From Eledone cirrhosa (Eukaryota), in NCBI GenBank assembly GCA_964016885.1, contig OZ024743.1, forward strand, positions 177,444,001 through 177,508,000: a stretch of DNA of 64,000 bases. Direction: 5' to 3'. Positions 41,397 through 60,770 of the stretch are shown here, in pieces (position 1 is the stretch's first letter; each line of letters starts with the position of its first letter). The position numbers and the translations under genes were made by a program. The notes under the pieces are model-generated. The model made no database searches. It was not told the DNA's origin and saw only the letters and a program-made list of their open reading frames with translations.

Positions 41397-41453
41397 AATA
41401 ATAACAATGATAATGATATTATTATTATCAATAATAATAATAATAATAATATT
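41397..41453. repeat. Degenerate (AAT)n/(ATT)n tract between Tx1 copy C and Dong copy 1
   Basis: aataataacaatgataatgatattattattatcaataataataataataataatatt. Confidence 0.9.
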
Positions 41454-44400
41454 ATCAAATGATAAAATCTCATACGGGATCGGCCGTCACCCGGGTCAAA
41501 AAGAGCCGCGTCCCTCAGAGAGGAACGAGACTGGGGTCGAAAAATCAGCTAATGGTTCAAACCTTCCCATCACTTCGGGGCTGGAGACCTCCCATAACCG
41601 GAATACTCCTACAGTTGGCCCTCCATGCTCACCACCAAGAAATCCAAATAAAAAGAGGGAAAAATGGTCAGGGGAAGACAATAAAGAAGTCCTTAAGACG
41701 TTCTACACTGCCATGTACTACCCATCAAATATATCGAATACAGAACAGACATATATCAACTGGAAAAAGAAACATCCCGAAAACAGAGGCTATATTGACA
41801 GTAACAAACTAGCCAATATACGAAGAAATATTGTTAACAATAAGTTACTAACTGATATAGAAATTGATCAGATCAAGCTATTAGCACAAAGTCAGCGAAG
41901 GGAAAATGAAACATGTGTCAGTGAAAACGAGGTAAATTGTAACACTTCGAATCCCAGGGTAGGCGAGGAATCACTGACAACAGAACACATTAAAGAAAGG
42001 ATCGAGAAAGTGGAGGGAGTGCATGCTCAAGATGAAACTCAAAATGAAAACAATGAGATCGTAATTGATAGAGAAATGAATGAGAATGAACTTGCCAACT
42101 TGAAGGATGAAATTATGATCGAATAGATGAAAATGAAAGAATTTGACATGGAGGAACGAAACACCCTCCCTAAGATCCAGAACTCCAAACAGAACCCAAA
42201 GATAATACACAAGATTAACATAATTCTCAAAAACATTATCATCACAAACAAACTAAACATTACTGATTTAAATCATCTCTATTATGCATCGGCTAAAGTC
42301 ACCACTCACTTATGTGGAGGGAAAATGAAAAAACAAAGGAATTCCTACAAGAAATCTACTTGGCAAGAGAACATCAATCGCCAAATAAACCTTCTCCGAT
42401 CTGACATAGAAATGTTAACAAACTACAAAGTAGGTGAACATGTTAAACAAACTAAACTTAGAAAATTGAAAAGAAAATAGAGTATAAAATTAACAAGTGA
42501 CATAGACATGCTTATAGAAATAATTAAGCAAAAAGTGTCGGCCAAAGCTGTTCATATAAGGCGCTTTGAAAAACGATCTAGATTCTATAAGGACAATAAT
42601 ATGTTCAAAAACAACCAAAGAAACTTCTACAGAAAAATTGACAAGTCAACAATAACTACTAAATCAATACCACCCAAGGAGGAAGTGCAAGAATTCTGGT
42701 AAAAGATCTGGGCTGAAGAAAAAGTTCATAATATACATGCCCCATGGATAGACAGACAAATGAAAGATACAGCTCACCTTGAGGAACAAATATGGGAAAA
42801 TATAACAGTTGAACAGTTGCGTTTGGCTCTTAGAAAAACCAGCAAATGTAAATCCCCAGGAAAAGACAAAATAACAAATTTCTGGATAAATGCCTTCACA
42901 GAGTCTCATGAGCTGTTAGCCCAACTTTACTATGAAATAGTTAAGGAGCCAGAAAAGATAGCATCATGGCTAGTTAACGGCATTACATTCCTGCTTCCGA
43001 AGAATGATGAGACAAACAATCCCAAAAATTACAGACCGATACCTTTCTTGACCACAATGTATAACATTTTAACATCAGTCCTAACTGAAGGACGACCCCT
43101 CTAGTCTTTGTTGACACTCGTCCTAAAAGTGGTAACACGAAATGATTACCCCTTGGCGGTTAAGGATAAAACGCGAGTTTAGACTAGATAAATGCGCCAA
43201 AGCAACGTTCACCAGAGGAAAGCTGCTGAAAAGTTCAGACATTAATCTTGATCGGAGGAATGTAATAAGAGAACTTGATCAAGAGGAAACTTGCAAATAT
43301 CTAGGTGTTTGTGAAGGAGACGGAATCAAGCACTCGACAATGAGGGAAAGGATAAGGAAGGAATGTTACCGCAGAGTAAGGGCAATCTTAAGAACGGAAT
43401 TGAATGCAAGGAATAGGATCGATGCCATAAACACGCTTGCCATACCAGTAGTAACCTACAGTTAAAATGTCATCAACTGGTCAAGAACAGAGATCCGTAG
43501 GCTCGATACAAAAATTTGAAAATTCTTAACCATGCACAGAATGCATCACCCTAAGGCAGATACAGATAGAATATATCTCCCTAGGAAAGAAGGAGGACGT
43601 GGGTTAATCCAGTTAGATATTGCGTTGAAAACCGCAACAATTGGATTATCTACATATCTAGGGAATCATATGATTGGGTGATCAAACTCGTTTTGAAACA
43701 CGAGAGCATCAAAAGATCATACTCCATTACAAAAGATGCACAAAGATACAGTAATGGACTACAAATTTCAGAAGTCCCATTTATTGCTGAAATGGAAAAC
43801 ACAGAAAAAGCAAAGCAGGTAAAAGTAACTGCAAAGAAAGAACTGCTACATAAACTGGCTAAGAAATGGCAAGAAAAGCCTCTGTATGGAAAATACCCAG
43901 AAAGAGCTAACAATCCTGATTTTGACAAAACTTTAACCCATCAGTGGTTGGCATCCTCTGGACTGAAATCGGAGACTGAAGGACTGATTATATCAGCACA
44001 AGATCAGTGTCTGCCAACAAAAAATTACCAAGCCAACATAATAAAAAAATGGATGCAACCCATTATGCCATGTATGTAAAAAACAACCAGAGACCATTGA
44101 TCATATAATTTCAATGTGCAGTCCTATAGCTCCAACCGAATACCTAAACAGGCATGACAGATCTGCACAATACATACATTGGATAATGTGTAAGCATTTT
44201 GACCTGCCCCATCAAAAGAATTGGTGGGAGCATCAACCACCTCCCATACTTGAAAAAGATCACATCTCAATCTTGTGGAACTTTAGCATCCAAACAGACC
44301 GAAAAATAGATGCAAATAGACCTGATATAATACTGAAGGACTTTAAAAAGAGGATATGCCTGCTAATTGATATGTCTGTCTCCAATAGACAAGAATGTAT

Positions 44401-44773
44401 CTATAAAAACATTTGAAAAATTGAGTAAGTATAAGGACCTGGTGATAGAAATTGGAAAAATGTGGAAATTGAGAACTAAAACAATACCAGTGGTTGTAGG
44501 CGCTCTAGGAATGATACCTAAGGTGTCTAATGATTACTTATCGCAAATCCTAGGAAACCCGCATATAGGAGAAATACAAAAGATAGTACTAATGGGAACT
44601 GCCCATATACTAAGGAAGATTCTGTCAATATAAGTACATCACAAGTCTAAACACCTAAATATGCATGTGTGTGTATGTATGTTCTTTCTTGAACATGGCG
44701 GACCTTGTTGTCTCTTGAGGTCACTGGTTGTGACTTGGTGATAACTCGTATGAACATAAGGCAAGATAAATGC
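41454..44773 (+). mobile_element. R4/Dong-clade RT-RLE retrotransposon copy 1, decayed, RT core deleted
   Basis: Motifs KREKWSGEDN, KSPGKDKI, NYRPI, YLPRKEGGRGL, WLASSGLKSETEGLIISAQDQ, CX2C...HIISMC, RHD, RPDI...LLID...KLSKYKDL (restriction-like endonuclease). The element ends in (AAT)n. Confidence 0.9.
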
Positions 44774-44789
44774 AAATAATAATAATAAT

Positions 44790-47700
44790 TGTTTCTACTT
44801 TTGGCACAAGGGCTGACATCAAGAAAAACATTACAGACGGCACAGGACGGTACAGGACGGTACGATGTGGGTTTTGTGCGTGTAAATATTTTTATTATTT
44901 ATATAAGAAAAGAAAAAAAGGACATAGAAACATATATATATATAAACAATACAAATGAAAATTGAAACAATGAAAAATACACAAATAGGGGGGAAACCTC
45001 CGACGGGTACTGGTGGCGAAAACCACACAAAAGACCACAGCCACCCTGACCACCAGGACAAGCGCCCTCTCTCAATTTTTTCCATTTCTCAAACTACAGA
45101 CGTATATTCAGAGCGGTCCCGTTTACTCGGACCATTCTCGCTACATTCACCCACCTTTCAACAAACTTGCTAGAAAGCAGTACTTGCCTCTCCACCCTGA
45201 TTTTCCTCTGCAAGTTAAACTTGAAAAAGTTAATTAGGGATTCGCCGAAGAGGAAAGTGTCTGTCTTTAAACCTTTGAACCTTGTCCACTACACAATCTC
45301 TTTCGCCATGGCTACCAGGCAGATGAAAACCGCCTGCCCTTCCTCCTCGAAGGAAGACGGCGAGACCATCTGCACAATGGACTCAGTCGATAACCGGATC
45401 AGTCCTACAGGCGACAGCAACTGTTCGACATACCTCCACAAGGCAGCAATGCTCGGGCACTGAACGAGTGCGTGCACGACGGATTCGTCGCTCTGCGCGC
45501 ATCTCGGACAGGTTCGGCTGACGGCACTTCCTTGCTTGTAGAGCTTATCTCGAACCGGTAGCACTGCCAGGCCAGGGATTTTTGGAAGTTATCCATAGAC
45601 CCTGGGCTGAAAGTTCTCCGTAAGAGAGCAAACAGCTGATCTTCTTCGACGCTCAAGATCTCTCCAAGAACGTTGTCGCTCTTCCCCTCCACTAGTCTTC
45701 CATAGAACGCCGAGGTGGATGTTCCACCGATACTGGTGCCCAGCTGGCAGAGGGCAGTGAGCGCCTGGAGACATTCCAGTTTCCAAGCGCTATCCCTCGG
45801 TCTTTTTCTGACCCAGGACTGCAGCTCCATCAAGGAGACGAGCTGTGGGAAAACGTGCCTGGCGAACGGCGACCACACCTGTTCACCGTCAAGGAAGCAC
45901 CAGAGATGTCGCAGCCTCAGCGCATGTTTGCGCATCATCAGCCATGGCATGCCCAGTCCTCCACGCAACGGGAGTTGACAGCAGATGGAACGTCTGACCA
46001 TGGGAGCACGTCCCTTCCACAAAAAGCGGAAGAGGAGGCGCTCCATTTTGGTGAGAGTTGGGCCGGAGCAAGGGACAACGGTGAGGCGGTAGCAGATGAC
46101 GGATGCGATGTACGCATTCGCCACCTCCGCTCGGCCTTTCAGGGACAGCTTCCTCTCAGCCCATTTCTGGGTGAGGGAGACCACCTTGCTCGTCTCCTCG
46201 TTCCAGTGTTTCTCCATCTGGAGGCCCGGTCCGAACCAGGCCCCGAGCAATTTAACCGGTCCGTCCGTCCAACGCCCCACGACGCTGTCGGACGGCATGG
46301 ACTTTCCTCTCCAGGTGCCGAGTTGCAAGCCCACCGACTTTTCCTGGTTTATCTTTGCTCCTGTCACCGCTTCGTATTCCTTGAGAGCGGTGCCGAGCAT
46401 CTGGACGTGTCTGTTGCTCGACACCACCACGGTGACGTCGTCGGCGTAAGCCGACTCGGATTTCCCTCATCCTAATTCGCGTGGGACGCCTCTCATCGCC
46501 GCCAGTTTGTGCAGTAACGGCTCGAGAGCCAATACGTACAAGAGGGACGAGAGGGGACAACCCTGGCGGACTGAGCGCATGATGCTTAACGGCTGCGACA
46601 GGTGACCGTTCACTCTCACAACTGAGCAGATGTCGCTGTACATCGCTGCGATCCAACCCCTGTAAACGGGCCCGAAACCGGATACCTCGAAAACCGCCGC
46701 CAGGTACCGATGGTCGACCCAATCGAATGCTTTGGATTGATCCAAGTTGATCAGGGCCCCACCCGTGCCAGGTTCCTTAACCACCCTCTCTATGATGTAT
46801 CACATGAGGTGGAGGTTGTCGTGTATGGATCTGTCCGGAATGGCACATGTCTGCGCCTCTCCCACCAGACCCTTGACGACAAGCGCCAACCTCGTTGCTA
46901 ACACCTTGGCCAAAATCTTGAACTCTGCGTTTAGCAGGGTTATGGGCCTGAAATTATCGATTATCCCCTTGTTCGGGTCTTTTCTCAGCAGCAGCACCGC
47001 TTCCCGGCTCACAAAACTGGGAATGCTCCCGTTCTGCTGCCAGTTGCAGTGGACGTCTGCCAAGAGGTCTGGCATAAATGCATAAAGCTCGTAGCGCAGA
47101 CCACCCAAACCTGGCGCTTTACCCCTCGTGCAGTTAGCCATCGCTTCCCGTATTCCACCGGCTATTATTGGCTTTTCGCAACACTGTGCTGCGGTCGTCG
47201 AGAGCCGAGGCAGTCCGTCGAGGTATGCACTGAAGTCCATACCCTGGATCCGGGCCGCCGCTGCTCCCGAACAGTTCAGCAAAGTGCTGCTGAAAAGCTT
47301 CACACATCCGCTCGGGTTCGAGGATCACGCACCCGCTTTGGTCAGACAAAGACTGAATTGTGGCTTTGTTGCCATGTCGCGCCTCTGCCACCCGGGCCCA
47401 TTGGACGGCTTTTGTCCCCACATGTTTCACGGCATGCGCTCTAGCTCTGACAACGCAGCCTTCGTGTTTTGCGTTGAAGAATTGGTCGAGTGCCAATCTC
47501 GCCGCAAGCACGTCGGTTGCGATGCTTGTCCTAAACGCCACTTCTAGCTTTGTGACTAGCTCTCCCTCTACTCTATTTTCCTCTATCACTACTCCTTTGC
47601 TAAACCTAATTGACTCTACTTTAATTGCCCTTTTCAGGGCGAACCACAACCTATTGTTGACGACCGGTCCCGTCAACGCCCGCTTAACTAATACGCTAAT

Positions 47701-50140
47701 CCGGTCTCTGTAGGCTTTGCGCGCCGGGAAAGACGCGTTCAACTTCCAGTAACCGGGCCCTTTGTTTATGAAGTCTGTCTATGTCGATCTCACAGATCAC
47801 AAATTTGTGGTCTGTGTAGTCGACTATTTTAAATTGTGGACAACTTATACTAGCCTTATCTAGTTCTCTGCAGAATACCTTATAGAGATACGATCTGGAT
47901 GACCCGATGCGGTTTGTCCATGTCCACATTGGCACATTCGGGTGATCCAGTCGATACCTGTCAGACAGTTCAAAACGTCTGAGCAGGTTGGTGAGGCTCT
48001 TGCACCCTCCTCCCCTATCCACTAGCCTCACACAATCCCAGCGTGCATCCAAGATACCGTTCCAGTCGCCCACTAACACTAAAGAGCGGGACGTTCCGAG
48101 AAAGGTCTCTAGACGTCTGAAGAAATCTGGCCGTCCTGCCCCTGTTGGGGCGTAGACAGCTACTAGCCTGAAAGCATTGCCTTCGCTGCCGGTCACGTCC
48201 AACCACACCGACTTCCCTTCTGGGTCTAGGAAGATGGCCCGTATGGCGAGATCCAAGCCTCTCCGAAAAAGGACGGCAACCCCTGCCCCCGATCCTGGAC
48301 GGCTGGGAGATGCGTATACATCGTAGCCGCCGAAGATCAGTGCGAAGGCTTGTGCTTCGGAGATTCTGGTCTCACTGATGGCCACCACATCTATGTTTAG
48401 TGACCTGAGGTCGTTGAGCAGGTGACCCTGCTTCCAAGATGACCCCAGGCCACGTGCATTTATACTGCCTATTCTGAGTACGGCCATGTTGGATGAGAAA
48501 CGAGGCAAGTGAGAAAGGGTCACTTACCTTGATCGTGTGGTGAAGGGACAGTAGAACCGTTCCTTTCGCTGGTCATGGGTGTTTCCAAGAGGATGTCGGT
48601 GTATATCCTCTTGGTAACTAACCCTCAGAAATCTCCAACTGCGTTGGGGAATTTTGGTTTTAAAGGTTTGTACTGTTCTATTGAGATTTCAATGATGCTT
48701 ATGTTTGTCGGGAGAGCTCTTGGTGTTGGTGGGTTGTAGTAGTTTTTTTTCTGTGATGTCTGTGTGCTGCTTTATATATTGTATGAGTTCTTTTTTTGCC
48801 ATGTTTATGGCTGTGTACTTTTTGGTGAGAGGGTGATTTTGTTGCTGTTTTCTTCTTGTTGCTGTTTGGTGTGTGTGTTTTGTTTTGTTTTGTTTGCCTT
48901 GTTGGTGTTTTTGGTGATGCTGGTGGTGGTGTGCTTGCTGTTGTCAGTGGTGCTTGTGGTTTTGATGGTGATGGTGGTGGTGTTGCTGCAAGTTTCCTTG
49001 CTGCCTTTACCCCTCTTTGTATGCCTTCGCTTTTGGAGGGTGAATCTAAGGGTATTTTTCTTTTTTGTCTTTTGTGGCAGACCGTTTGCCACTTCACTTC
49101 CGCCTCACTCTCCATGTCGGATTCCGTGGCGTCTGGGAGAGGTATGTGCTCCAGGGCTGTTGGTGGTGGTAGTGGAGCCCTCTTCGGCAATTTTGTTGCT
49201 GGTGTAGCTACTTCAAATGTAGCTATTGGTGTTGCCGCCACTGATGCTGCTGTTTAGTTGTCCGTGGCCTTGGTACGGGTGCCACGGACGTTGCCCCGCT
49301 ACTCACCGTGGAAGGGGCTTCTGCGTTTGTTGCCTGCCCTGCTCTTGGTTGCAGCGGACCAGGTATTGGCAGGAGAGGGGCCTTCTTCTTCGCTGTCTTC
49401 TGCGGACAAAAGGCCCTGAGGTGACCCTTCGACCCACAGAGATAACATTTTGGCCGTCTTCCTTCTACGCTTATAGGGAGTTGGAGTCCTTCCTCGATGT
49501 CTATGATATCGGCGATAGCGTCGATACATTCCTGGTCAGTTTGTATAAGCATTTGCATGCCTATACCTGAGCAGTTCTCTCTCCCTATTTTCTCTACTTG
49601 CAGCATGGTCGTCCTGTTCTCGATTCCAGCGAGGACAGACACGGCCAGCCAAGGTATGGGCACGTCGGGTAGGACCTGGGGCACTTTGAACCTCACAATT
49701 TTCTGCCCGCAGTAGGAGGGTACCAAGACTATTTCTTCACACTTTAGAGTTTCCAAAGAGTGAGACTTTGCTTCCTGGGGGCTGGCTAAAAGTACGTCTA
49801 CTGTGGCGTATTTTCTGCCTCGGGTGAGGTGGGTTTTGCGTGCCCAGACGCACCCCAAGGCCTTTTGGATTTGAGCCTCTGTGGCTCTCCACCCGATGTT
49901 AGATTTTGCTTACGGTGCGGTAAGTCACCGTCCGTAGCTGCTGGTCCTTGAAAAAATCGGGTGGCGGTTTCAGGGAGATTCTATTGGCGCTTCTTGTCAC
50001 CACGGCCCTTGCGACTGCCATCTCCTCCTCTGTGACTAACACGGTCTCGATATTTTGGGCGACACCTGCAAAAGCAGTGGTCCCTTTTTCAGCAGCACCA
50101 CTATTGCTGCCGCTACTGGTGTTACTGGTGGTGAATAAAA
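44790..50140 (-). mobile_element. Tx1/L1-clade LINE copy D, near full length, decayed; 5' end uncertain
   Basis: ORF2 runs from about 48487 (MAVLRIGSINARGL) to about 45094 with APE, RT and CCHC motifs across frameshifts. ORF1 carries KCYLCGSKGHLRAFC. The 3' end reads CCCTTGTGCCAAAAGTAGAAACA(ATT)n and is tail-to-tail with Dong copy 1. Confidence 0.9.
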
Positions 50141-50141
50141 C

Positions 50142-50525
50142 CTCCTCTGTCTACACTATATAGAACAGCCAAATAACAGCAATTTCACCACCACAACAAT
50201 CTAGATACACCACTTATCCCATCACTCCTCTGTGTACAATAAGTACAACAGCCAGACAACGGCAATTTCATGATTACTATTATTGTATCTCAAGTTTCCT
50301 CAAAATGTTTAATTCAAATATTAAGTAAATATGTCAACACATATATTAAACATACGCGAGAAACCGCATAGATATACAGATCAAACAAACGCACCCTACT
50401 ACAGTCTATTCAACAGAACTCAGTAACGACACGCCATCACTACTGTCACCGCCGCCACCACTCCATCATTGCTACCACTATCCTATCACCGCCCCTACCA
50501 CTCCTTCATTGCTACCACCACTATT
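50142..50525. repeat. Unassigned spacer containing two imperfect short tandem duplications (about 83-bp and about 39-bp period)
   Basis: ctcctctgt..acagcca..acagcaatttca recurs at about 50143 and 50225; tcaccgcc..ccactcc.tcattgctaccac recurs at about 50446 and 50486. Confidence 0.6.
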
Positions 50526-50757
50526 CCCCCACTACCTTCTGTTAACTTAAGAAAGGGGAAGGTGGCGGTATCACTAGAAAAGGGAGAGGCTAGCAAAAGA
50601 TATAAATAGACTGACTTAGTGACCCGGTCAAACGTCAACGACTATGGCACTGCTGGCTCCCCCCTTCCCCACCAACAATAGCAAACACCCAAGCACCACC
50701 ACCGACATAGCCAACAACAACAACAGGCAACTTCAACAAAAAGTATATTATATTATT

Positions 50758-50993
50758 AATAATAATTTCATTCTTAAGCCACGCAATGCTCACATTAAGG
50801 AACCACTCATGATAATAACAATTTAAAAAACAACAAAATAGAAAACCCATGACCAAGAAATACCGGGATGGCGGCCGGCGGGGAATAGCCGTGTCTCTAG
50901 GGGAGGACCCCCGCCCTCTAGTTTTGGTTGACACTCGTCCTAGAAGTGGTAACACGAAATGATTACCCCTTGGCGGTTAAGGATAAAACGCGA
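50758..50993 (-). mobile_element. Possible short 3' fragment of a further Tx1-related element
   Basis: Plus-strand aataatttcattcttaagccac...acattaagga resembles the copy B terminus aataatttcatttattagccac...acatgtaaggga and starts at an AAT tract. No clear protein motif is present. Confidence 0.4.
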
Positions 50994-51006
50994 CAAAATA
51001 TAGTAA

Positions 51007-54000
51007 ATATCAAATGATAAAATCTCATACCGGATCGGCCGTCACCCGGGTCAAAAAGGGCCACGTCCCTCAGAGAGGAACCAGACTGGGGTCGAAAAAT
51101 CAGCTAATGGTTCAAACCTTCCCATCACTTCGGGGCTGGAGGTCTCCCATAACCGGAATACTCTTACTGTGGCCCTCCATGCTCACCACCAAGAAATCCA
51201 AAGAAAAAGATAGAAAAATGGTCAAGGGAAGACAATAAAGAAGTCCTTGAGACTTTCTACACTGCCATGTACTACCCATCAAATAGATCGAATACAGAAC
51301 AGACATATATCAACTGGAAAAAGAAACATCCCGAAAACAGAGGCTATATTGAATGAATGAGAATGAACTTGCCAACTTGAAGGATGAAATTATGATCGAA
51401 TGGATGAAAATGAAAGAATCTGACATGGAGGAACGAGACACCCTCCCTAAGATCCAGAATTCCAAACAGAACCCAAAGATGATACACAAGACTAACATAA
51501 TTCTCAAAAACATTATCATCACAAACAAACTAAACATTACTGATTTAAATCATCTCTATTATGCATCGGCTAAAGTCACCACTCACTTATGTGGAGTGGA
51601 AATGAAAAAACAAAGGACTCCCACGAGAAATCTATTTGGCAAGAGAACATCAATCGCCAAATAATCCTTCTCCGATCTGACATAGAAATTTTAACAAACT
51701 ATAAAGTAGGTGAACATGTTAAACAAACTAAACTTAGAAAATTGAAAAGAAAATAGAGTATAAAATTAACAAGTGACATAGACATGCTGATAGAAATCAT
51801 CAAGCAAAAAGTGTCGGCCAAAGCTGCTCGTATAAGGCACTTTGAAAAACGATCTAGATTCTATAAGGACAATAATATGTTCAAAAACAACCAAAGAAAC
51901 TTCTACAGAAAAATTGGCAAGTCAACAATAACTGCTAAATCAATACCACCCAAGGAGGAAGTGCAAGAATTCTGGGAAAAGATCTGGGCCGAAGAAAAAG
52001 TTCATAATATACATGCCCCATCGATAGACAGACAAATGAAAGATACATTCACCTTGAGGAACAAATATGGGAAAATATAACAGTTGAACAGTTGCGTTTT
52101 GACTCTTAGAAAAACCAGCAAATGTAAATCCCCAGGAAAAGACAAAATACCAAATTTTTGGATAAAAGCCTTCACATAGTCTAATGAGCCCAACTTTACA
52201 ATGAAATAGTTAAGGAGCCAGAAAAGGTACCATCATGGCTAGTTAATGGCATTACAATCCTACTTCCGAAGAATGATGAGACAAACAAACCCCAAAATTA
52301 CAGACCGATAACTTGCTTGACCACAATGTATAACATTTTAACATCAGTCCTAACTGAATATACATATGAAAGATTGTTCTACATATGACCACCTGCTAAC
52401 AAATGATCTATTTCCCAATGAGCAGAAAGCGTGTCAACGAGGCTCATATGGCTGTAAGGATCAGCTTTTGGTTAACAAAATGATACTGGAAGATTGTCAT
52501 AATAGACACAAAAATCTATCAATTGCTTGGATAGATTATAAAAAAGCATTCGATAGTTTGCCATACAGTTGGATTGAAAAATGTTTAGAGATTTTCAAAA
52601 TATCTCCCGTTGTCAGGAGGTTCCTGTCATTCAGTATGAAGACATGGAAAACGACACTCCTTTTGAATAGTGAAAAAAAATGACTGGAAGCTGGAGAAGT
52701 TTATATTAATTGTGGAATTTTTCAGGGTGACTCTTTATCACCGCTTTTATTCTGCATCGCACTTATGCCATTAAGTAAAATGCTCAATGAAACAAAACAT
52801 GGATATAAAGTCTATGACAAAACCATTAATCACTTGTTCTACATGGATGACCTGAAACTATTCGCAAAAAATGATGAACAATTGCAAGGGCTATTATCCA
52901 CTGTGAAGCAGTTCAGTGATGACATTAAAATGGAGTTTGGACTAGATAAATGCGCCAAAGCAACGTTCACCAGAGGAAAGCTGCTGAAAAGTTCAAACAT
53001 TAATCTTGATCGGGGGAATGTGATAAGAGAACTTGATCAAGAGGAAACTTACAAATATCTAGGTGTTTGTGAAGGAGACGGAATCAAGCACTCGACAATG
53101 AGGGAAAGGATAAGGAAGGAATGTTACCGCAGAGTAAGAGCAATCTTAAGAACGGAATTGAATGCAAGGAATAGGATCGATGCCATAAACACGCTTGCCA
53201 TACCAGTAGTAACCTACAGTTACAATGTCATCAACTGGTCAAGCACAGAGATCCGTAGGCTCGATACAAAAACTTGAAAATTCTTAACCATGCACAGAAT
53301 GCATCACCCTAAAGCAGATACAGATAGAATATATCTTCCTAGGAAAGAAGGAGGACGTGGGTTAATCCAGTTAGACATTGCGTTGAAAACTGCAACAATT
53401 GGATTATCTACATAACTAAGGGAACCACATGATTGGATGATCAAACTCGTTTTGAAATACGAAAGGATCAAAAGATCATACTCCATTACAAAAGATGCAC
53501 AAAGATACAGTAATGGACTACAAATTTCAGAAGTCCCATTTACTGCTGAAATGGAAAACACAGAAAAAGCAAAGCAGGTAAAAGTAACTGCAAAGAAAGA
53601 ACTGCTACATAAACTGGCTAAGAAATGGCAAGAAAAGCCTCTGTATGGAAAATACCCAGAACGAGCTAACACTCCTGATGTTGACAAAGCTTTAACCCAC
53701 CAGTGGTTGGCATCCTCTGGACTGAAATCGGAGACTGAAGGACTGATTATATTAGCACAAGATCAGTGTCTGCCAACAAAAAATTACCAAGCCAACATAA
53801 TAAAAAATGGATGCAACCCATTATGCCGTGTATGTAAAAAACAACCAGAGACCATTGACCCCTAATTCCAATGTGCAGTCCTATAGCTCCAACCGAATAC
53901 CTAAACAGGCATGACAGAGCTGCACAATACATACATTGGATAATGTGTAAGCATTTTGACCTGCCCCATCAAAAGAATTGGTGGGAGCATCAACCACCTC

Positions 54001-54534
54001 CCATACTTGAAAAATATCACATCTTAATCTTGTGGAACTTTAGCATCCAAACAGACCGAAAAATAGATGCAAATAGACCTGATATAATACTGAAGGACTT
54101 TAAAAAGAGGGTATGCCTGCTAATTGATATGTCCGCCTCCAATAGACAAGAATGTATCTATAAAAACATTTGAAAAATTGAGCAAGTATAAGGACCTGGT
54201 GATAGAAATTTGAAAAATGTGGAAATTGAGAACTAAAACAATACCAGTGGTTGTAGGCGCTCTAGGAATGATACCTAAGGGGTCTAATGATTACTTATCG
54301 CAAATCCCAGGAAACCCGCGTATAGGAGAAATACTAAAGATAGTACTAATGGGAACTGCCCATATACTAAGGAAGATTCTGTCAATATAAGTACATCACA
54401 AGTCAAAACACCTAAAGATGCATGTGTGAGTATGTATGTTCTTTCTTGAACATGGCGGACCTTGTTGTCACTTGAGGTCACTGGTTGTGACTTGGTGATA
54501 ACTCGTATGAACATAAAACAAGATAAATGCAGCT

Positions 54535-54535
<1 letters not shown>
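51007..54535 (+). mobile_element. R4/Dong-clade RT-RLE retrotransposon copy 2, decayed
   Basis: Same family and same start as copy 1. It retains the RT core (WIDYKKAFDS, GIFQGDSLSPLLF, HLFYMDDLKL), CRVC..., RHD and the RLE, has a deletion of about 275 bp at about 51352, and ends in a long (AAT)n. Confidence 0.92.

Positions 54536-54596
<61 letters not shown>
54536..54596. repeat. (AAT)n tract, about 20 units
   Basis: Pure taataataa... run. Confidence 0.97.
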
Positions 54597-54600
<4 letters not shown>

Positions 54601-54937
54601 CAATACCAGTGGTTGTAGGCGCTCTATGATGATACCTAAAACAATACCAGTGGTTGTAGGCGCTCTAGGAATGATACCTAAGGGGTCTAATGATTACTTA
54701 TCGCAAATCCCAGGAAACCCGCGTATAGGAGAAATACAAAAGATAATACTAATGGGAACTTCCCATATACTAAGGAAGATTCTGTCAATATAAGTATATC
54801 ACAAGTCTAAACACCTAAAGATGCGTGTGTGAGTATGTATCTTCTTTCTTGAACATGGCGGACCTTGTTGTCTCTTGAGGTCACTGGTTGTGACTTGGTG
54901 ATAACTCGTATGAACATAAAGCAAGATAAATGCAGCT

Positions 54938-54938
<1 letters not shown>
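54597..54938 (+). mobile_element. 5'-truncated Dong copy 3 (RLE C-terminus and 3' UTR)
   Basis: Near-identical to 54235-54535, with a 41-bp tandem duplication at its 5' end; followed by (AAT)n 54939-54976. Confidence 0.9.
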
Positions 54939-54976
<38 letters not shown>

Positions 54977-55240
54977 GCTGAAAAATATTTGGGCCAGATA
55001 TCTGGAAAGCTATATCTGCAAGAGATATAGCAAATAGTGCTGACTGGCACAGTCCATGTCCTTAGAAGGGCATTATCAATTTAAATACCTTGCAAATACA
55101 TTTATTGTTTTTATGTCTTTATTGTATCATTTATATAACAGTTGATTGTTAAATATATGTATTACCAAATGTTGTCTCAGGTGTCAGGTTGACACTCGGG
55201 AATGATTTGGGAAAGAAGCAGAATTCAAAGGAAGTTTCAA
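54977..55240 (+). mobile_element. 3' fragment of a second Dong-like family
   Basis: Translates as AEKYLGQISGKLYLQEI*QIVLTGTVHVLRRALSI*, homologous to the Dong C-terminus IQKIVLMGTAHILRKILSI*. Bounded by AAT tracts. Confidence 0.75.
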
Positions 55241-55257
55241 ATAATGATAATAATAAT

Positions 55258-55375
55258 TGTTTCTACTTTTGGCACAAGGCCAGCAATTATCCCAGTGCAT
55301 TACTGGTACTTTATTTTATTGACCTCGTAAGGATGACAGGCAAACTTAACCTCGGCGGGATTTGAACTCAGACTG
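55258..55375 (-). mobile_element. tRNA-derived SINE, 5'-truncated
   Basis: Minus strand has a B-box-like GAGTTCAAATCC, a central TTTGCC..CATCC..GGTC.ATAAAATAAAGTACCAG domain (resembling the Meta/MESC-type domain, from memory) and the tail CCTTGTGCCAAAAGTAGAAACA(ATT)n. Confidence 0.8.
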
Positions 55376-55392
55376 TAAATAATAATAATAAT

Positions 55393-55570
55393 TGTTTCTA
55401 CTTTTGGCACAAGGCCAGCAATTATCTGAGTGTATTACTGATACTTTATTTTATGGACCCCATAAGGATGAAAGGCAAAGTTAACCTCGGCGGGATTTGA
55501 ACTCAGAATAGAAAGGGCCGTAACTCTATGCTGCAAAGCATGGCGTCAGACCCTCTAACGATTCTGACAA
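55393..55570 (-). mobile_element. tRNA-derived SINE, same family
   Basis: Same tail, central domain and B-box as 55258-55375, with a longer 5' part containing an A-box-like segment; head-to-tail with the previous copy through an AAT tract. Confidence 0.8.
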
Positions 55571-55748
55571 GTCAATGATCATAATCCTTTCTAACATCAA
55601 AATTATAATTTGTATCATAATAATAATAACATCAACAATAACACTCCTCAGTTTTTTTTTAATTGTTTTTCTTTCGTTTTAAAAAAATACCCAGTAGAGA
55701 TATCGTGCTTCATTGATAAACCGATTTTTTTAAATAGATGCAGTTAAC

Positions 55749-56141
55749 TCAATGTGAACTGCTAGAATCGCTTTTATCCACGAGTAGTTTATTTAAAAAG
55801 AGAGAATTCGTATTAAGATTGATATATTTAGATCCTGAAGAGCTGTTCTGTATCTTTTTCATTGGAATATAGTTTACACCTTGTGATGATTTTCGAAGAC
55901 TTTTGCAAAGCGGACTTTTTGAAGAGACATCATTTTCATAACTATTAACATTGGAGTTGTTGGATGAGAGCAAAGGAACATTTGTAAGTGAAAGAGAGAA
56001 AGAAGTAGCGTTATAATTGTCGTAATCTTCATTTTCTTGTTCTTGCTCTTGTTCAATATCTTGTTGCTGTTGCTCATTCAAATTATCTTCTTTTTCAATT
56101 AAGTCTTGTTTCAGTTGCTGTTCTTGCTGTTCTTTCTGTTG

Positions 56142-56195
<54 letters not shown>

Positions 56196-57008
56196 TTCTT
56201 GCTGTTGTAGCTGCGACTGTAATCCCTGTTGTTGACAGTTTGTTTCATCGTGACGATTGTGAAAATCATAAGGCTTAATGACATTATTGGGTTGTTTCAG
56301 CTGTAGAAGTCTGGGGAATTGCTTGTGTTGGTGATGAATTTTGTTATTGTTATTGTTGGTTTTAATGCTGTTACTGCTATTGCTGCTGCCACTACTGTCA
56401 TGACTTATTTGTTGCTCTTGTTGATTTGATTGATTGAGGCTGTCTTGAAGTTGAGGTTGAGGTTGAAGATGATGATGATGAGAGGTGGGATTTGAAGAAG
56501 GGATGGGATTAGGATGTGAATTTGTATGAGGGTGAGGATGATGATTATGGTAATGTAGAGGGAGAAGTAAGTTTTCCTCAGCATTGGTGTCTCTTTGAGT
56601 TTCAGTATTATCTTTTCTGGAATCAAACTGAGATTTATTCTCATTCTTAGGAATTGATGATTCTTGGTTCATATACAAATAATTTATATAAGAACGTATT
56701 CCAGGAACATAGCGATTACCTTTACGGTTACACGTGTTTGTGTTAATATCTTGAGATGTCTGTTTAGCAGTTTTCTTGTAGGTGTCAACTGAGCCAGATT
56801 TCTGCTCATTATTGTCATTATTGATCTCTCTATCTGATGAATTGTTCTCAGACATTTCAGATATTGATTCAGAAATCAAAGACGAATAAGAACTTTTGTT
56901 GTCATCTCTTTTAGTTAAGGAGTTCTCTAGATTAGGAAGTTCGACAAACGTTTCTTTTGAAAGATTGTATTGAAATGTCGGTAACGTATATGTCGCTGTA
57001 TTCGGGTC
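55749..57008 (-). CDS. ALK: ALK/LTK-like receptor tyrosine kinase, terminal coding exon (419 aa plus stop; low-complexity, polyQ tail)
   Basis: Acceptor ttattttag|GAC at 57009; an open 1260-bp frame in phase 0 continuing into ORF 55749-56879. It starts DPNTATYTLP, comparable to DPDVINTALP at the start of the last human ALK exon. Confidence 0.75.
56136..56195 (-). repeat. Coding polyglutamine tract Q20 including a pure (CAG)14
   Basis: Plus strand reads ctg(ttg)4(ctg)14ttg, in frame within the terminal exon. Confidence 0.9.
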
Positions 57009-57122
57009 CTAAAATAAATAAGAAACAGAAATTAATAATAATAATAATTGTTTCTACTTTTCTACTTTGTTTAAGGAGGAGGCTAGCCTGCTCTGTAATA
57101 TCCGTGGAGAGATAGAGAGATA

Positions 57123-57752
57123 GAGAGGAAACTGTGGCTCACATCGTATCCGAGTGTAAACATCTAGCTCAGACTCACTATCAAGGGTGGAGGCACGAGA
57201 TAATAGGAAAGGCGATTCACTGGCATTCATGCAAACTAAATAATTTACCACATTCTGAGAAGTGGTATCTTCATAAGCCAGAGTCTGTGGCAGAAAACGA
57301 TCGAGTGAAGGTGCTATGGGATTTCAGGATACAGACAAGAAATGTGAACACAATAGGTCTGACCTGGTAGTTTTTGACAAGGAAAATATCATGCCTGATT
57401 GTAGATGTATCCTGTCCGATTGACACAAGAGTGCAAGAAAAGGAGAGGGAGAAAATTAACCAATACCAAGTTTTAAAGTGGGAATTAAAAAGCATTTGGG
57501 ACTGTCATGGGATCAAGGTCGTTCCAATTGTCATAGGGGCATTAGGTATTTGGTACTATCTCAAAGAGTTTTCAAGGATGGTTAAAGAACATTAGTCCAT
57601 CCCACTTGTTTTGAACACTTCAAAAGGCATGTTTGTTGGGAACAGCAAGAACCCTCCTATACATCCTGAATATCTGAGGCTGCAGGTAGCGACTTGATGT
57701 TCATTTGAACAAACTTTCTTGTTAAATATCTTCAATGACTGAGACCCCAAGA
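57123..57752 (+). mobile_element. 3' fragment of a third Dong/R4-like family (intronic)
   Basis: ETVAHIVSEC, RHE, VLWDFRIQT, LIVDVSCPID..EKEREKINQYQVL, VPIVIGALG (CCHC and RLE region); ends in AAT repeats. Confidence 0.85.
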
Positions 57753-57812
57753 AAATAATAATAATGAAAATAATAAGATAAATGAAATGACAGTAATAAT
57801 AATATTAATAAT

Positions 57813-58641
57813 GTAAGACAAAAGCCAAACAGGAAAACTTGAAGGAAATTTCTAGACTGTGGCAAGAAATAACATTGCATGTGCAATACCTCAAACGAGC
57901 TTGGTAAGCTGATGTAGATGTGGAAATAAACCATCAGTGGATGCATACTACTGGTTTGAAAGCTGAAACAACAGGATTTAGCCTATCAGCTCAAGATCAG
58001 AATCTCATCTCCCGAAACTATCAAGCTAATGTCTTGCACAACGGGGCTGATACAGAGTGTAGATTCTGCAATGACATACTGGAAAGTATTGACCACTTTG
58101 TTGCAGGTTGCTCAGTCTTTGTTCCTAAAGAATATAAAACCAGGCATGACTGAGTTGGCCAATACTTACACTGGAGTATATGCCGTCACTATGATATCCT
58201 TCACCCTAAGAAATGGTATAGACACCACCCACAGACAGTCACTGAGAGAGAGAATGTTAACATCCTATAGGATTACGGGAGTAACTGATCAGATGTCGTC
58301 ATCAATGACCGAAGACAAAAAAACATGCTTGTTAATTGATACGATAATGCCTACTGATAAAAACATTTCAGCAAAAGAATTCTAGAAACTATCATACGAT
58401 GTGATAATTGAAAACCCAAATCATTCCGTTTGTTGTCGGTGCCATACGAATGATCAAGAAAGGCAGACAAATTCTTTGACCAGATCCCAGAGAAACCAGC
58501 TATATATGAGGTTCAAACGAATGTGCTGTCATAAACCGTTCACCTTCTCAGGAAGTTTCTCTTCATCTAATCTATACGTGTCTTAGGTCTCTTGTTGAGA
58601 CCCGACAGGAAGATTAAATAAAATGGAAATAAAAAAAACCC
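57813..58641 (+). mobile_element. 3' fragment of a fourth Dong/R4-like family (intronic, old)
   Basis: HQWMHTTGLKAETTGFSLSAQDQ, CRFC...IDHFVAGC, RHD, LLIDTIMPTDKNIS; ends in aataataat. Confidence 0.85.
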
Positions 58642-59505
58642 AATAATAATCTATATATTCATTAAATTGTTTCTCCACACGTAATCTTTAGTAAGAGGCG
58701 AAATATTTGTCTGCTCGGGTGAAGGAGAAGGGGGGTGAGGGGGAGAGGGAGAAGAAAAAGAAGGGTGAAGAAGGGTGAAGAAAGAAGATGAAGAAGGAAG
58801 AAGAGGACACTTTCTAACTTTGTAAATTATGCTGATACAGTTGGCAGAACAATGCACTATCAATGGATCCCAGTATCTAATTTGACGCCTCAAAACGTAA
58901 ATAAATGTTGCTTTTCATCTCTGTAATTTAGATTAAACGTGTAACCGTACAAACATCTTCAGGGCTGATCCTTATTTCCTTTTAAAAAAATACTTGAATA
59001 TTGATTATATCTCATTGAAGAAAATCTGTATGACATCATTATTTTATTCTTTTATTCTAATTTATGTGTTCAGCATTAAACGGTTTGATTATATTACTTC
59101 GGGATATGTTAAAAATAAAATGGAGGAAAAGAAGCGAATAAGTTTACATATTGATTTATTCTTAATTGCTGAAATAGAACAAAATGCTAGAATGGCATTA
59201 ACTCTAATATACTGCATGTGTTTTATTGATCCAATGAGAATATAAACCCTACTGCCTTAAACAAAACGAATACACATTGAACAGTGTTGCACTTGATATA
59301 CGAAACGAGTTGGTCGTGAATGGATCTATTTTGCTTGATTAATACTGACCTGGGGCTAAATAATAACAATACTAACATCCACAACAACAACAGTGTATAG
59401 CACCCTGGCAGAATCAATATTTTATAGTAGTATCATTGAAAGTTATAAACTAGCATTGGTTAACTGCAATAACTTAGAGTGTACAAACTTGATAAAATAA
59501 ATAAT

Positions 59506-59689
59506 TGTTTCTACTTTAGGCACAAGGCCATCAATTACTCAGTGCATTACTGGTACTTTATTTTATCGACCCCGTAAGGATGAAAGGCAAAGTCAACCTC
59601 GGCGGGATTTGAACTCAGATCGAGAAGGGACGTAACTATGCTTGAAAACATGGCGTCCGACCCTCTACCGATACTGCCAATCCACCGCC
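59506..59689 (-). mobile_element. tRNA-derived SINE with a 15-bp target-site duplication
   Basis: Same family as 55393; flanked by identical gataaaataaataat at 59491-59505 and 59690-59704. Confidence 0.88.
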
Positions 59690-59704
59690 GATAAAATAAA
59701 TAAT

Positions 59705-60068
59705 GGTTCTTGATTGAGACACAAGACAAACAAATGTAGGGAAGGGGCAAGTTGATTAAGTCGACTCCAGTACGTTACAGGTACTTTATTTTATCGACCA
59801 TGTAAGGATGAAGAGCAAAGCTAACTTCGGCGGAATGTGAAAATATTAATGGTTTCTGATTTAAGCACAAGGCCAACAGTTTAGGTAGAGAAGAAAGTTG
59901 ATTAAATCGACCCGAGAGGGTTACTGGTACTATATCTAATCGACCCCGTAAAGATTAAAAGCAAAGCTAACCTCGGCGTGATGGGAACTCAGCATGTAAA
60001 GAGTCGTAACTATATACCACAATTAATGTTGTTCGACACTCTATTCCGATTGTGCCACATCACCACCA
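59705..60068 (-). mobile_element. Two older related SINE copies (about 59705-59845 and about 59850-60068)
   Basis: They share the central domain and carry an extra gttgattaa.tcgac segment. The tail variant is CCTTGTGCTTAAATCAGAAACC-ATT. Confidence 0.75.
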
Positions 60069-60078
60069 TTATAATAAT

Positions 60079-60418
60079 TGTTTCTACTATTAGGCACAAG
60101 GCCAGCAATTACCCAGTACATAACTAGTACTTTATTTTATCGACCCCGTAATGATGAAAGGCAAAGTTAACCTCAGCAGGATTTGAACTCAGAATAGCAA
60201 GGGCCGTAACTCTATGGGTCAAAGCATAGCGTCCGACCCTCAACCGATACTGCCAATCCAATAATAATTGTTTCTACTTTTGGCACAAGGCCAGCAATTA
60301 TCCAGTGCATTACTGGTAATTTATTTTATCGACCCCGTAAGGATGAAAGGCAAAGTTAACCTCGGCGGAATTAGGGGCGTAACTCTTTGCGTCAAAGCAT
60401 GGCGTCCGACCCTCTACT
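60079..60418 (-). mobile_element. Two tandem SINE copies (60079-60259 and 60269-60418)
   Basis: Each starts on the plus strand with ataataattgtttctact..ggcacaaggccagcaatta and has the family central domain; they are joined by AAT repeats. Confidence 0.85.
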
Positions 60419-60559
60419 AATAATAATGATAATTAAATTTACTAATCAAACCTAAAAAAAGAACAACTAAACTAAATCATTAATCAGCTGGCTCTGTTAT
60501 CGACTTATTGCTGCAGTAATTAATATAAGCTTAATGCCATGTGAAGAATTAATTATAAT

Positions 60560-60770
60560 GGTTTCTGATTTAGGAAAAACGTCAATAATTTTGGGGAGGG
60601 GAAGTTGATTAAATTAACTCCAATGCGTTACAGGTACTTTATCTATAGATCATGTAAGGATGAAAGGCAAAGCTACCCTGGAGGTATTTGAACGCAGAAT
60701 GTAAGGGACCGTAATTCTAAGTCACAAAGCATGTTGCCTGACACTACCAATACTGCCAATCAACCGTTCT
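60560..60770 (-). mobile_element. Older SINE copy
   Basis: ggtttctgatttagg...gtaaggatgaaaggcaaag...atttgaac; diverged from the copies above. Confidence 0.7.

What the first reader, a model, noticed from the sequence alone, without database searches (positions are those of the whole stretch)
44712..58602. Covarying 3'-UTR stem-loop conserved across four divergent Dong-like families
Seen: each family has CT(T/C/G)(G)AGG leading into a hairpin with a 5-nt loop shortly before the AAT tail. The examples are AGGTCAC-tggtt-GTGACTT (44718, 54475, 54878), GTGTC-aggtt-GACAC (55181), AGGCTGC-aggta-GCGACTT (57677, one mismatch) and GGTCTC-ttgtt-GAGACC (58586). Stem sequences differ while pairing is kept, and the rest of the UTRs show little similarity. 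Known: 3' stem-loops are RT recognition signals in L2 and other stringent LINEs. Inference: this is the cis signal for R4/Dong target-primed reverse transcription.
Basis: partly seen in the sequence, partly recalled or inferred. Interest (0 to 1): 0.7.

Follow-up and report, generated by a model that had tools for sequence, protein, structure and literature searches.

The report
Conserved 3' hairpin of Dong retrotransposons
Four distantly related jumping-gene families in this animal genome end in the same small bulged RNA hairpin, which likely is the tag their own reverse transcriptase grabs to copy them, a signal known from other retrotransposon groups but not found described for this one.

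Summary
Six sites belong to four R4/Dong-like non-LTR families (three sites are one family; C-terminal proteins 27-53% identical). Each carries the same ~39-nt fold about 40-60 nt before an (AAT)n run: lower stem, 2-nt 5' bulge, A-G-G-led 7-position upper stem, 5-nt loop. Models trained on three families find the fourth as the top untrained hit in the window. 9 of 16 pairs show double-sided changes (permutation p 0.0002-0.0003, not tree-corrected). G-U pairs point to the sense RNA. Corrections: much of the upper stem is conserved in sequence, not covarying; in family C the hairpin overlaps the stop codon; the 'AAT tail' is probably the (TAA)n target, since it also precedes 4 of 6 copies. Relatives of the protein keep basic residues at the positions of the arginines with which R2Bm binds its 3' UTR. 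Best reading (0.72): the template-selection signal for target-primed reverse transcription. No binding data, and no 3' ends from other genomes could be obtained, so n = 4. A new variant of a known kind of signal.

The parts
44707..44745 (+). Family A copy 1 bulged stem-loop (upper stem 44718-44736, loop UGGUU; one U-U mismatch in the lower stem)
   Evidence: (z -4.2)
54464..54502 (+). Family A copy 2 bulged stem-loop (16 of 16 pairs; upper stem 54475-54493)
   Evidence: (z -5.3)
54867..54905 (+). Family A copy 3 bulged stem-loop (upper stem 54878-54896)
55168..55206 (+). Family B bulged stem-loop (upper stem 55179-55197, loop AGGUU; lower stem imperfect)
   Evidence: (z -2.2)
57666..57704 (+). 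Family C bulged stem-loop (upper stem 57677-57695, loop AGGUA); overlaps the last three codons and the stop codon TGA 57675-57677
   Evidence: (z -1.4)
58574..58612 (+). Family D bulged stem-loop (upper stem 58585-58603, loop UUGUU; 4-bp lower stem)
   Evidence: (z -3.1)
41453..44775 (+). Dong-like element, family A copy 1: decayed single ORF (N-terminal helical domain, RT with an internal deletion, CCHC knuckle, REL endonuclease; stop 44631-44633) plus 141-nt 3' UTR
51008..54537 (+). Dong-like element, family A copy 2: near full-length decayed ORF (stop 54388-54390) plus 146-nt 3' UTR
54599..54940 (+). 5'-truncated family A copy 3 with a 41-bp tandem duplication at its 5' end (stop 54791-54793)
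54977..55240 (+). 5'-truncated family B element: last 35 codons (stop 55082-55084) plus 155-nt 3' UTR
57070..57754 (+). 5'-truncated family C element, the most divergent lineage (stop 57675-57677; 76-nt 3' UTR); 5' end approximate
57815..58642 (+). 5'-truncated family D element (stop 58568-58570; 71-nt 3' UTR); 5' end approximate
41397..41451 (.). (AAT)n run directly 5' of copy A1: likely target microsatellite
54536..54598 (.). (TAA)21 between A2 and A3: 3' flank of one copy and 5' flank of the next
54939..54976 (.). (TAA)12 between A3 and B
57754..57814 (.). Degenerate AAT-rich run between C and D

Best explanation
The motif is a bulged stem-loop at the 3' end of four R4/Dong-like retrotransposon families that likely serves as the RNA signal by which the element's own protein would select its transcript for target-primed reverse transcription into (TAA)n microsatellites. 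Shown from sequence: same fold, same register, same place 38-58 nt before the AAT run, in families whose proteins are 27-53% identical. Predicted: the sense RNA folds into a lower stem, a 2-nt bulge (or a 3x1 internal loop, since the invariant A pairs in only two of four families), a 6-7 bp upper stem and a W-K-G-U-W loop. Inferred by analogy: the basic helix N-terminal to the RT (the NTE-1 equivalent) docks in the major groove at the invariant A-G-G next to the bulge, the loop's invariant G-U adds identity, the unconserved ~30-50 nt spacer acts as a tether to the RT active site, and the nicked TAA strand primes cDNA synthesis, perhaps helped by co-transcribed AAU repeats.
For: Conservation and position. 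Covariation with one sequence per family: 54-55 of 64 cells paired against 46 in permutations (p 0.0017 / 0.00035); 9 of 16 pairs with double-sided changes (p 0.0002-0.0003); tool count on 5 distinct rows 87.5% paired against 30-54% for slid partners; the 2-nt 5' bulge register pairs 28 of 32 cells against 10-18 for registers off that diagonal. Strand: sense folds better than antisense in 6 of 6 copies and holds 16 G-U against 3 A-C pairs. Distance to the AAT run is steady (38, 43, 43, 42, 58, 38 nt) while distance from the stop codon runs from overlap to 83 nt, as expected of a signal measured from the RNA 3' end. Protein side: the model of an intact relative (P0003, pLDDT 89.5) matches R2 proteins best (R2Tg Z 34.2, rmsd 4.4, 786 aligned; R2Bm Z 33.9, rmsd 4.6, 763 aligned, starting at model 310 = R2Bm 305). 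A profile alignment gives the same register, putting R312, K315, R316 (77, 70 and 77 of 78 rows) on R2Bm Arg307, Arg310, Arg311, which read stem P1 of the R2 3' UTR (PMC10499050, section read). Window copy A1 keeps all three, A2 two of three. Precedent: 3' stem-loops are required by UnaL2 and ZfL2 (PMC1636434, PMC4176376); Entamoeba R4-type LINEs share about 70 nt of 3' end with their SINEs (PMC2996970, PMC3747384 Table 1), which implies 3'-end recognition in this clade.
Against: No binding, probing or retrotransposition data. Only four families from one genome; permutation tests ignore relatedness and the structure was chosen after seeing all four, so p-values are optimistic; upper stem alone p 0.02, lower stem alone p 0.01-0.04. 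In whole-UTR folding the hairpin is not dominant in A1 (pair probability about 0.05) or C (at most 0.37), and B's lower stem prefers a shifted register; C alone has z -1.4. All copies are decayed. The register of the basic helix has modest posterior support in the profile alignment. No SINE in the window carries the motif.
Confidence: 0.72

Rival explanations
1. The hairpin is a real, selected RNA structure but acts at another step: 3'-end formation, stability, export or translation of a transcript without a poly(A) tail, through a host protein (in the manner of the histone mRNA stem-loop).
For: All sequence evidence shows selection on an RNA fold near the 3' end, not which protein reads it. 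Family D's upper stem superficially recalls a histone-type stem (recalled resemblance). In C it overlaps the stop codon.
Against: No match to any Rfam family at these sites down to E = 1; loop of 5 nt closed by C-G plus a bulged lower stem; distance to the stop codon is not conserved; the element protein keeps the basic helix used by R2 for 3' UTR binding.
Confidence: 0.14
2. The protein reads mainly the conserved bases, or the four families acquired one 3' end by recombination or template switching in this host, and pairing is secondary or a relic.
For: 12 of 41 columns are invariant and sequence-only scoring recovers the held-out family as top or second hit in 4 of 4 tests, while pairing alone does so in 1 of 4. 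All families share one genome and one target, which favours exchange.
Against: Families share only 18-23 of 41 motif positions and no flanking similarity, yet keep pairing through double-sided changes at 9 pairs; combining pairing with sequence widens the margin in all four tests; in C the lower stem's 5' strand is coding sequence and still pairs.
Confidence: 0.1
3. The pattern is a chance or post hoc pick, or works as DNA or on the opposite strand (for example in the host pre-mRNA that runs antisense here).
For: Hairpins of this shape are common in the window; one non-Dong site at 30655 passes a strict descriptor (1 of 7 hits); n = 4.
Against: Leave-one-out recovery, unguided alignment and folding, G-U asymmetry and weaker antisense folding, and presence in 6 of 6 Dong-like 3' ends found in the window.
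Confidence: 0.04

Closest known systems
L2-clade 3' tail stem-loop (eel UnaL2, zebrafish ZfL2-1/ZfL2-2; PMC1636434, PMC4176376)
   Same: About 36-39 nt hairpin at the 3' end; two stems separated by a bulge or hinge; 5-nt loop; followed by short repeats.
   Different: Loop here is W-K-G-U-W, not GGAUA; hinge is a 2-nt 5' bulge with an invariant A, not a single bulged C plus U-U; the host elements are single-ORF REL-endonuclease elements, not APE-type L2; a 30-50 nt spacer follows; function is proven for L2, untested here.
R2 3' UTR core ('R2 tag' of R2Bm; pseudoknot-hinge-stem of vertebrate R2; PMC10499050, PMC12180492)
   Same: Closest solved protein relatives; same RT, thumb, zinc knuckle and REL layout; aligned basic NTE-1 helix.
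   Different: R2 RNA signals are two stems with a single-stranded junction, or a pseudoknot; here a single bulged hairpin. R2 targets 28S rDNA and has N-terminal zinc fingers; these elements sit in (TAA)n and show none in the aligned N-termini.
R4/Dong clade (Dong of Bombyx mori, DongAg, DongBg, ostracod Dong; PMC7998251, PMC3812793)
   Same: RT plus REL endonuclease, N-terminal Myb/SANT-like helices, insertion in (TAA)n; a Pediculus protein, a species listed in the published R4/Dong alignment, is 44% identical over 99% of the query.
   Different: No 3' RNA structure is mentioned in the passages seen; the motif is the addition.
Entamoeba EhLINE1/EhSINE1 and R4-1_ED/EdSINE1 pairs (PMC2996970, PMC3747384)
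   Same: R4-type LINEs whose SINEs share about 70 nt of 3' end, implying 3'-end recognition.
   Different: No stem-loop is named in the text searched (0 hits for stem, hairpin, secondary structure); the sequences could not be compared here.

Membership tests
[quoted passage not shown] | Single ORF with central RT domain | tested here: met
   RVT_1 E 5e-16; copy A2 aligns to one 1237-aa relative from near its N-terminus to its last residue across stops and frameshifts
[quoted passage not shown] | C-terminal CCHC knuckle and restriction-enzyme-like endonuclease, no APE domain | tested here: met
   Motifs in translations of A, C, D (B holds only the last 35 codons); model of a relative matches R2 proteins to the C-terminus; no APE Pfam hit in 5 of 5 relatives scanned
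[quoted passage not shown] | N-terminal Myb/SANT-like domain without zinc fingers | tested here: inconclusive
   Confident four-helix model of window 41641-41898; wide fold search lists many Myb/SANT domains (NgTRF Z 6.1, rmsd 4.6, 74 aligned; R2Bm 144-214 Z 5.1, rmsd 3.9, 71 aligned) but all Z below 8; Foldseek gave nothing at E 0.001
[quoted passage not shown] | Insertion into (TAA)n microsatellite (Dong branch) | tested here: met
   AAT run 3' of 6 of 6 copies and directly 5' of 4 of 6 (A1, A3, B, D); C has it about 20 nt further up behind a SINE remnant; A2 lacks a clear run
[quoted passage not shown] | RT phylogeny grouping with named Dong, R4 or Rex6 references | tested here: inconclusive
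   No named reference sequence was in hand; tree of C-terminal domains (quick method) holds only mostly unnamed relatives; similarity to the Pediculus protein (E 4e-129) far exceeds that of a relative to R2 (E 4e-28)
Stringent-type LINE 3' recognition stem-loop | Conserved stem-loop near the 3' terminus with compensatory changes | tested here: met
   (four families, one genome)
Stringent-type LINE 3' recognition stem-loop | Required for retrotransposition and bound by the element's protein | not testable with these tools
   needs binding, TPRT or cell assays
Stringent-type LINE 3' recognition stem-loop | Shared with a partner SINE tail | tested here: inconclusive
   The SINE copies in this window lack the motif; the rest of the genome was not available
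L2-clade (UnaL2-type) stem-loop | GGAUA loop, single bulged nucleotide with U-U or A-A hinge, in an APE-type L2 element | tested here: not met
   Loops are UGGUU, AGGUU, AGGUA, UUGUU with a 2-nt bulge; host elements are REL-type; L2 features from PMC1636434
Any Rfam family (including the histone 3' stem-loop) | Covariance-model match | tested here: not met
   None of 14 matches at E up to 1 in 28400-64000 overlaps a motif

The most novel reading that the evidence does not exclude
The ~39-nt bulged hairpin is a clade-wide 'Dong tag': conserved across R4/Dong elements of many animals, sufficient to make any RNA a template for Dong reverse transcriptase, cross-read among families only 30-50% identical, and bound by the same arginine helix that R2 uses on a quite different RNA fold. 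It would give a minimal portable signal for RNA-templated insertion into (TAA)n repeats.
Probability: 0.3. Interest if true: 0.75.

Novelty: new variant of a known kind. Interest (0 to 1): 0.5.

Why it matters
How each non-LTR clade picks its own RNA is known for L2, R1, R2 and a few others; for R4/Dong the searches here found no described RNA signal. A defined 39-nt candidate with invariant bases, and three matched basic residues on the protein, make the question testable with a handful of mutants. It also gives a covariance model for finding Dong 3' ends and any SINEs or processed copies they mobilise, and, if sufficient on its own, a tag for microsatellite-directed gene writing like the R2 tag. 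It would not surprise a specialist that a stringent element has a 3' hairpin, which caps the score.

Tried and rejected
Outside DNA: the scan of prokaryotic genome contigs for stray eukaryotic copies gave 1 locus from 82 pattern matches, a chance match inside a bacterial gene (the model finds nothing notable there); tblastn of relatives against plasmids and phages gave no match. Metagenome and viral contig collections stayed unchecked, and names for five relatives could not be looked up. So no 3' end from another genome was tested. Supplements: Octopus repeat paper (summary table only; consensus library is on Zenodo, not seen), ostracod paper (no 'taataataa' string), EhSINE1 paper (file 1, part 1 of 4: coordinates only; four DOC files unreadable and may hold the sequences). 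The original Dong paper is not held. R-scape was not available and n = 4 would lack power. The inverted-repeat finder listed the upper stem only for D among the pairs shown, because it ignores G-U pairs. The 250 nt upstream of copy A2 show no unusual folding (z +0.8) and no Rfam ribozyme match. The careful tree did not finish; the quick tree left out B (too short) and 17 of 120 relatives without a complete C-terminus. The 30655 descriptor hit was rejected: it lies outside any Dong-like element and is not among the model hits. No complex prediction was made.
Full report
Setting. The window is eukaryotic repeat-rich DNA: a 48-bp satellite (1-28456), a block of APE-type L1/Tx1-like LINEs (about 28.5-50.5 kb), and on the + strand six pieces of single-ORF elements that end in a restriction-enzyme-like endonuclease domain. 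The mix of Dong-R4, L1-Tx1 and abundant SINEs resembles that reported for octopus (PMC13282606, passages seen), but no call established the host.

The elements. A 494-aa stretch of copy A2 found 876 proteins at E up to 1e-20 among 5565 candidates; the best of the 120 listed is 67% identical, most are unnamed, and one named hit is a Pediculus humanus reverse transcriptase (44%), a species used in a published R4/Dong alignment (PMC7998251, passages seen; accession not checked). Solved relatives are R2 proteins. The six pieces are four families: A (three copies, 94-97% identical in DNA), B, C and D. C-terminal protein identities between families are 27-53% (A-B 18 of 34, A-C 63 of 171, A-D 75 of 170, B-C 9 of 33, B-D 14 of 32, C-D 45 of 153; decay lowers these). 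In a quick tree A, C and D fall in three places, C on a long branch with one relative (support 98); B was too short to include.

The observation. The invariant A faces U in A and C but C in B and D, so it may be unpaired, which makes a 3x1 internal loop; RNAalifold on an unguided alignment of whole 3' ends chooses that form and predicts no other consensus helix.

Is it more than chance? Shape alone is not rare (93 hits in 35.5 kb on both strands; 3-30% of shuffled 3' ends). The combination is. Covariance models from three families rank the fourth as the best untrained hit in the whole window: A at E 2e-9 to 4e-8, C at 0.0017, D at 0.014, with background starting at E 1.4 (E-values rough; structure and register were fixed after seeing all four). 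A scripted version covers B as well: 0 of 71,001 background windows reach the held-out score in 4 of 4 tests. Flanks are unrelated. With one row per family, 54-55 of 64 cells pair (permutation mean 46; p 0.0017 and 0.00035) and 9 of 16 pairs change on both sides (p 0.0002-0.0003); taken apart, the upper stem gives p 0.02 and the lower 0.01-0.04. These tests ignore relatedness. Only two upper-stem pairs truly covary (C-G, G-C, U-G at one; A-U, U-A, G-C at the next); the rest of the upper stem is conserved in sequence. Sense strands fold better than antisense in 6 of 6 copies, with 16 G-U against 3 A-C pairs, which points to the element's own RNA rather than DNA or an antisense host transcript. 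Against: within the whole UTR the hairpin dominates in A2 and D and the upper stem in B, but not in A1 (about 0.05) or C (at most 0.37).

Position and the 'tail'. The upper stem ends 38, 43, 43, 42, 58 and 38 nt before the AAT run, whereas the gap from the stop codon is 73, 73, 73, 83, overlap and 3 nt. In C the stop codon itself forms the bulge and the invariant A. AAT runs also lie directly 5' of A1, A3, B and D, and A2-A3-B and C-D stand head to tail, each separated by such a run. Dong elements target (TAA)n in insects, molluscs and cnidarians (PMC7998251; PMC3812793; passages seen). The run is therefore best read as the target; whether some repeats are transcribed and help priming is open.

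Protein side. An AlphaFold model of an intact relative (P0003, 78-row alignment, mean pLDDT 89.5) superposes on R2Bm from model residue 310 = R2Bm 305 (Z 33.9, rmsd 4.6, 763 aligned). A profile search gives the same register, with modest posterior support. This places R312, K315 and R316, kept in 77, 70 and 77 of 78 rows, on R2Bm Arg307, Arg310 and Arg311, which recognise G33 of stem P1 in the R2 3' UTR (PMC10499050, section 8 read). It shows that the family has the helix an RNA signal would need; it does not show that this hairpin is the ligand. The N-terminal domain of copy A1 folds as four helices whose weak matches are rich in Myb/SANT domains (Z below 8).

Mechanism, step by step. Shown: conserved motif, its place, its strand bias, the AAT context, the protein layout. 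Predicted: the fold. Inferred: the newly made protein binds the hairpin of its own RNA through the basic helix at A-G-G beside the bulge and through the loop; the Myb-like domain and endonuclease nick (TAA)n; the spacer lets the RNA 3' end reach the RT; premature termination gives the 5'-truncated copies, all of which keep the hairpin. Confidence 0.72. Rivals: another RNA-level role through a host protein (0.14), sequence-only reading or 3'-end exchange (0.10), chance or other strand (0.04).

What is known. Required 3' stem-loops with a 5-nt loop and a hinge are proven for UnaL2 (PMC1636434, passages) and ZfL2-1/-2 (PMC4176376, abstract and section 13). A background section lists 3' stem-loops for SART1, UnaL2, ZfL2, SmaI, R2, plant and algal L1, Tad1 and RTE, not R4 (PMC5135761). 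Vertebrate R2 uses a pseudoknot-hinge-stem (PMC12180492, passages). Entamoeba R4-type LINE/SINE pairs share 3' ends (PMC3747384, passages and Table 1; PMC2996970, passages). Ten full-text searches (listings seen) showed no paper describing a Dong or R4 3' hairpin, and two octopus repeat papers gave no 'hairpin' or 'UTR' hit where those terms were searched (main text of PMC8967140; supplement of PMC13282606). PMC4758252 and PMC2657916 (passages) added nothing. The library lacks subscription papers: the original Dong, R4 and Rex6 reports, Kojima and Fujiwara 2004 and Repbase entries were not seen and may mention such a structure.

Verdict. A real, probably functional RNA element; it works like a stringent-type LINE 3' recognition hairpin but is not a member of the L2 type or of any Rfam family. 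New variant of a known kind, shown in one genome only. Interest 0.5; 0.75 if it proves a clade-wide, portable tag.

Noticed in passing
window 1-28456: 48-bp satellite of about 593 copies, 89% matches, with strong GC skew (about +0.53) and long stop-free frames that are by-products of the repeat.
   Followed up: no
window 28457-50500: Several nested L1/Tx1-like LINEs, mostly on the minus strand (APE endonuclease, RT, zf-RVT, a zinc knuckle), 67-98% alike in parts; one begins right after the SINE remnant that follows copy A1.
   Followed up: partly
window 44775-44811, 55243-55560, 57034-57061, 59492-60770: A SINE-like repeat on the minus strand, with a B-box-like motif (recalled label) and an (ATT)n end, sits in or beside the same AAT runs as the Dong copies; it lacks the Dong hairpin but has a 4-bp stem with a 5-nt loop near its 3' end.
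   Followed up: partly
window 43090-43176 and 50914-50993: In copy A1 about 570 bp of the RT core are replaced by an 80-bp piece 96% identical to sequence just upstream of copy A2, which suggests that 50770-51007 is the family's 5' UTR and that a template switch or rearrangement occurred.
   Followed up: partly
window 41453 and 51008: Copies A1 and A2 begin to align at the same point, a few bases before a candidate start codon; relatives align from residue 4-8 onward and share an N-terminal basic motif.
   Followed up: partly
window 55749-57008, minus strand: A 419-codon open frame rich in Q, N and S without a Pfam match, probably a host exon; the Dong pieces flank it in the opposite orientation.
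   Followed up: no
window 54596-54681: 41-bp tandem duplication at the 5' junction of copy A3, of the kind a re-start or slippage during reverse transcription could leave.
   Followed up: no
P0106, P0109, P0110: Three full-length relatives carry an extra Pfam PF02338 domain (OTU-like protease; name recalled) beside the RT.
   Followed up: no
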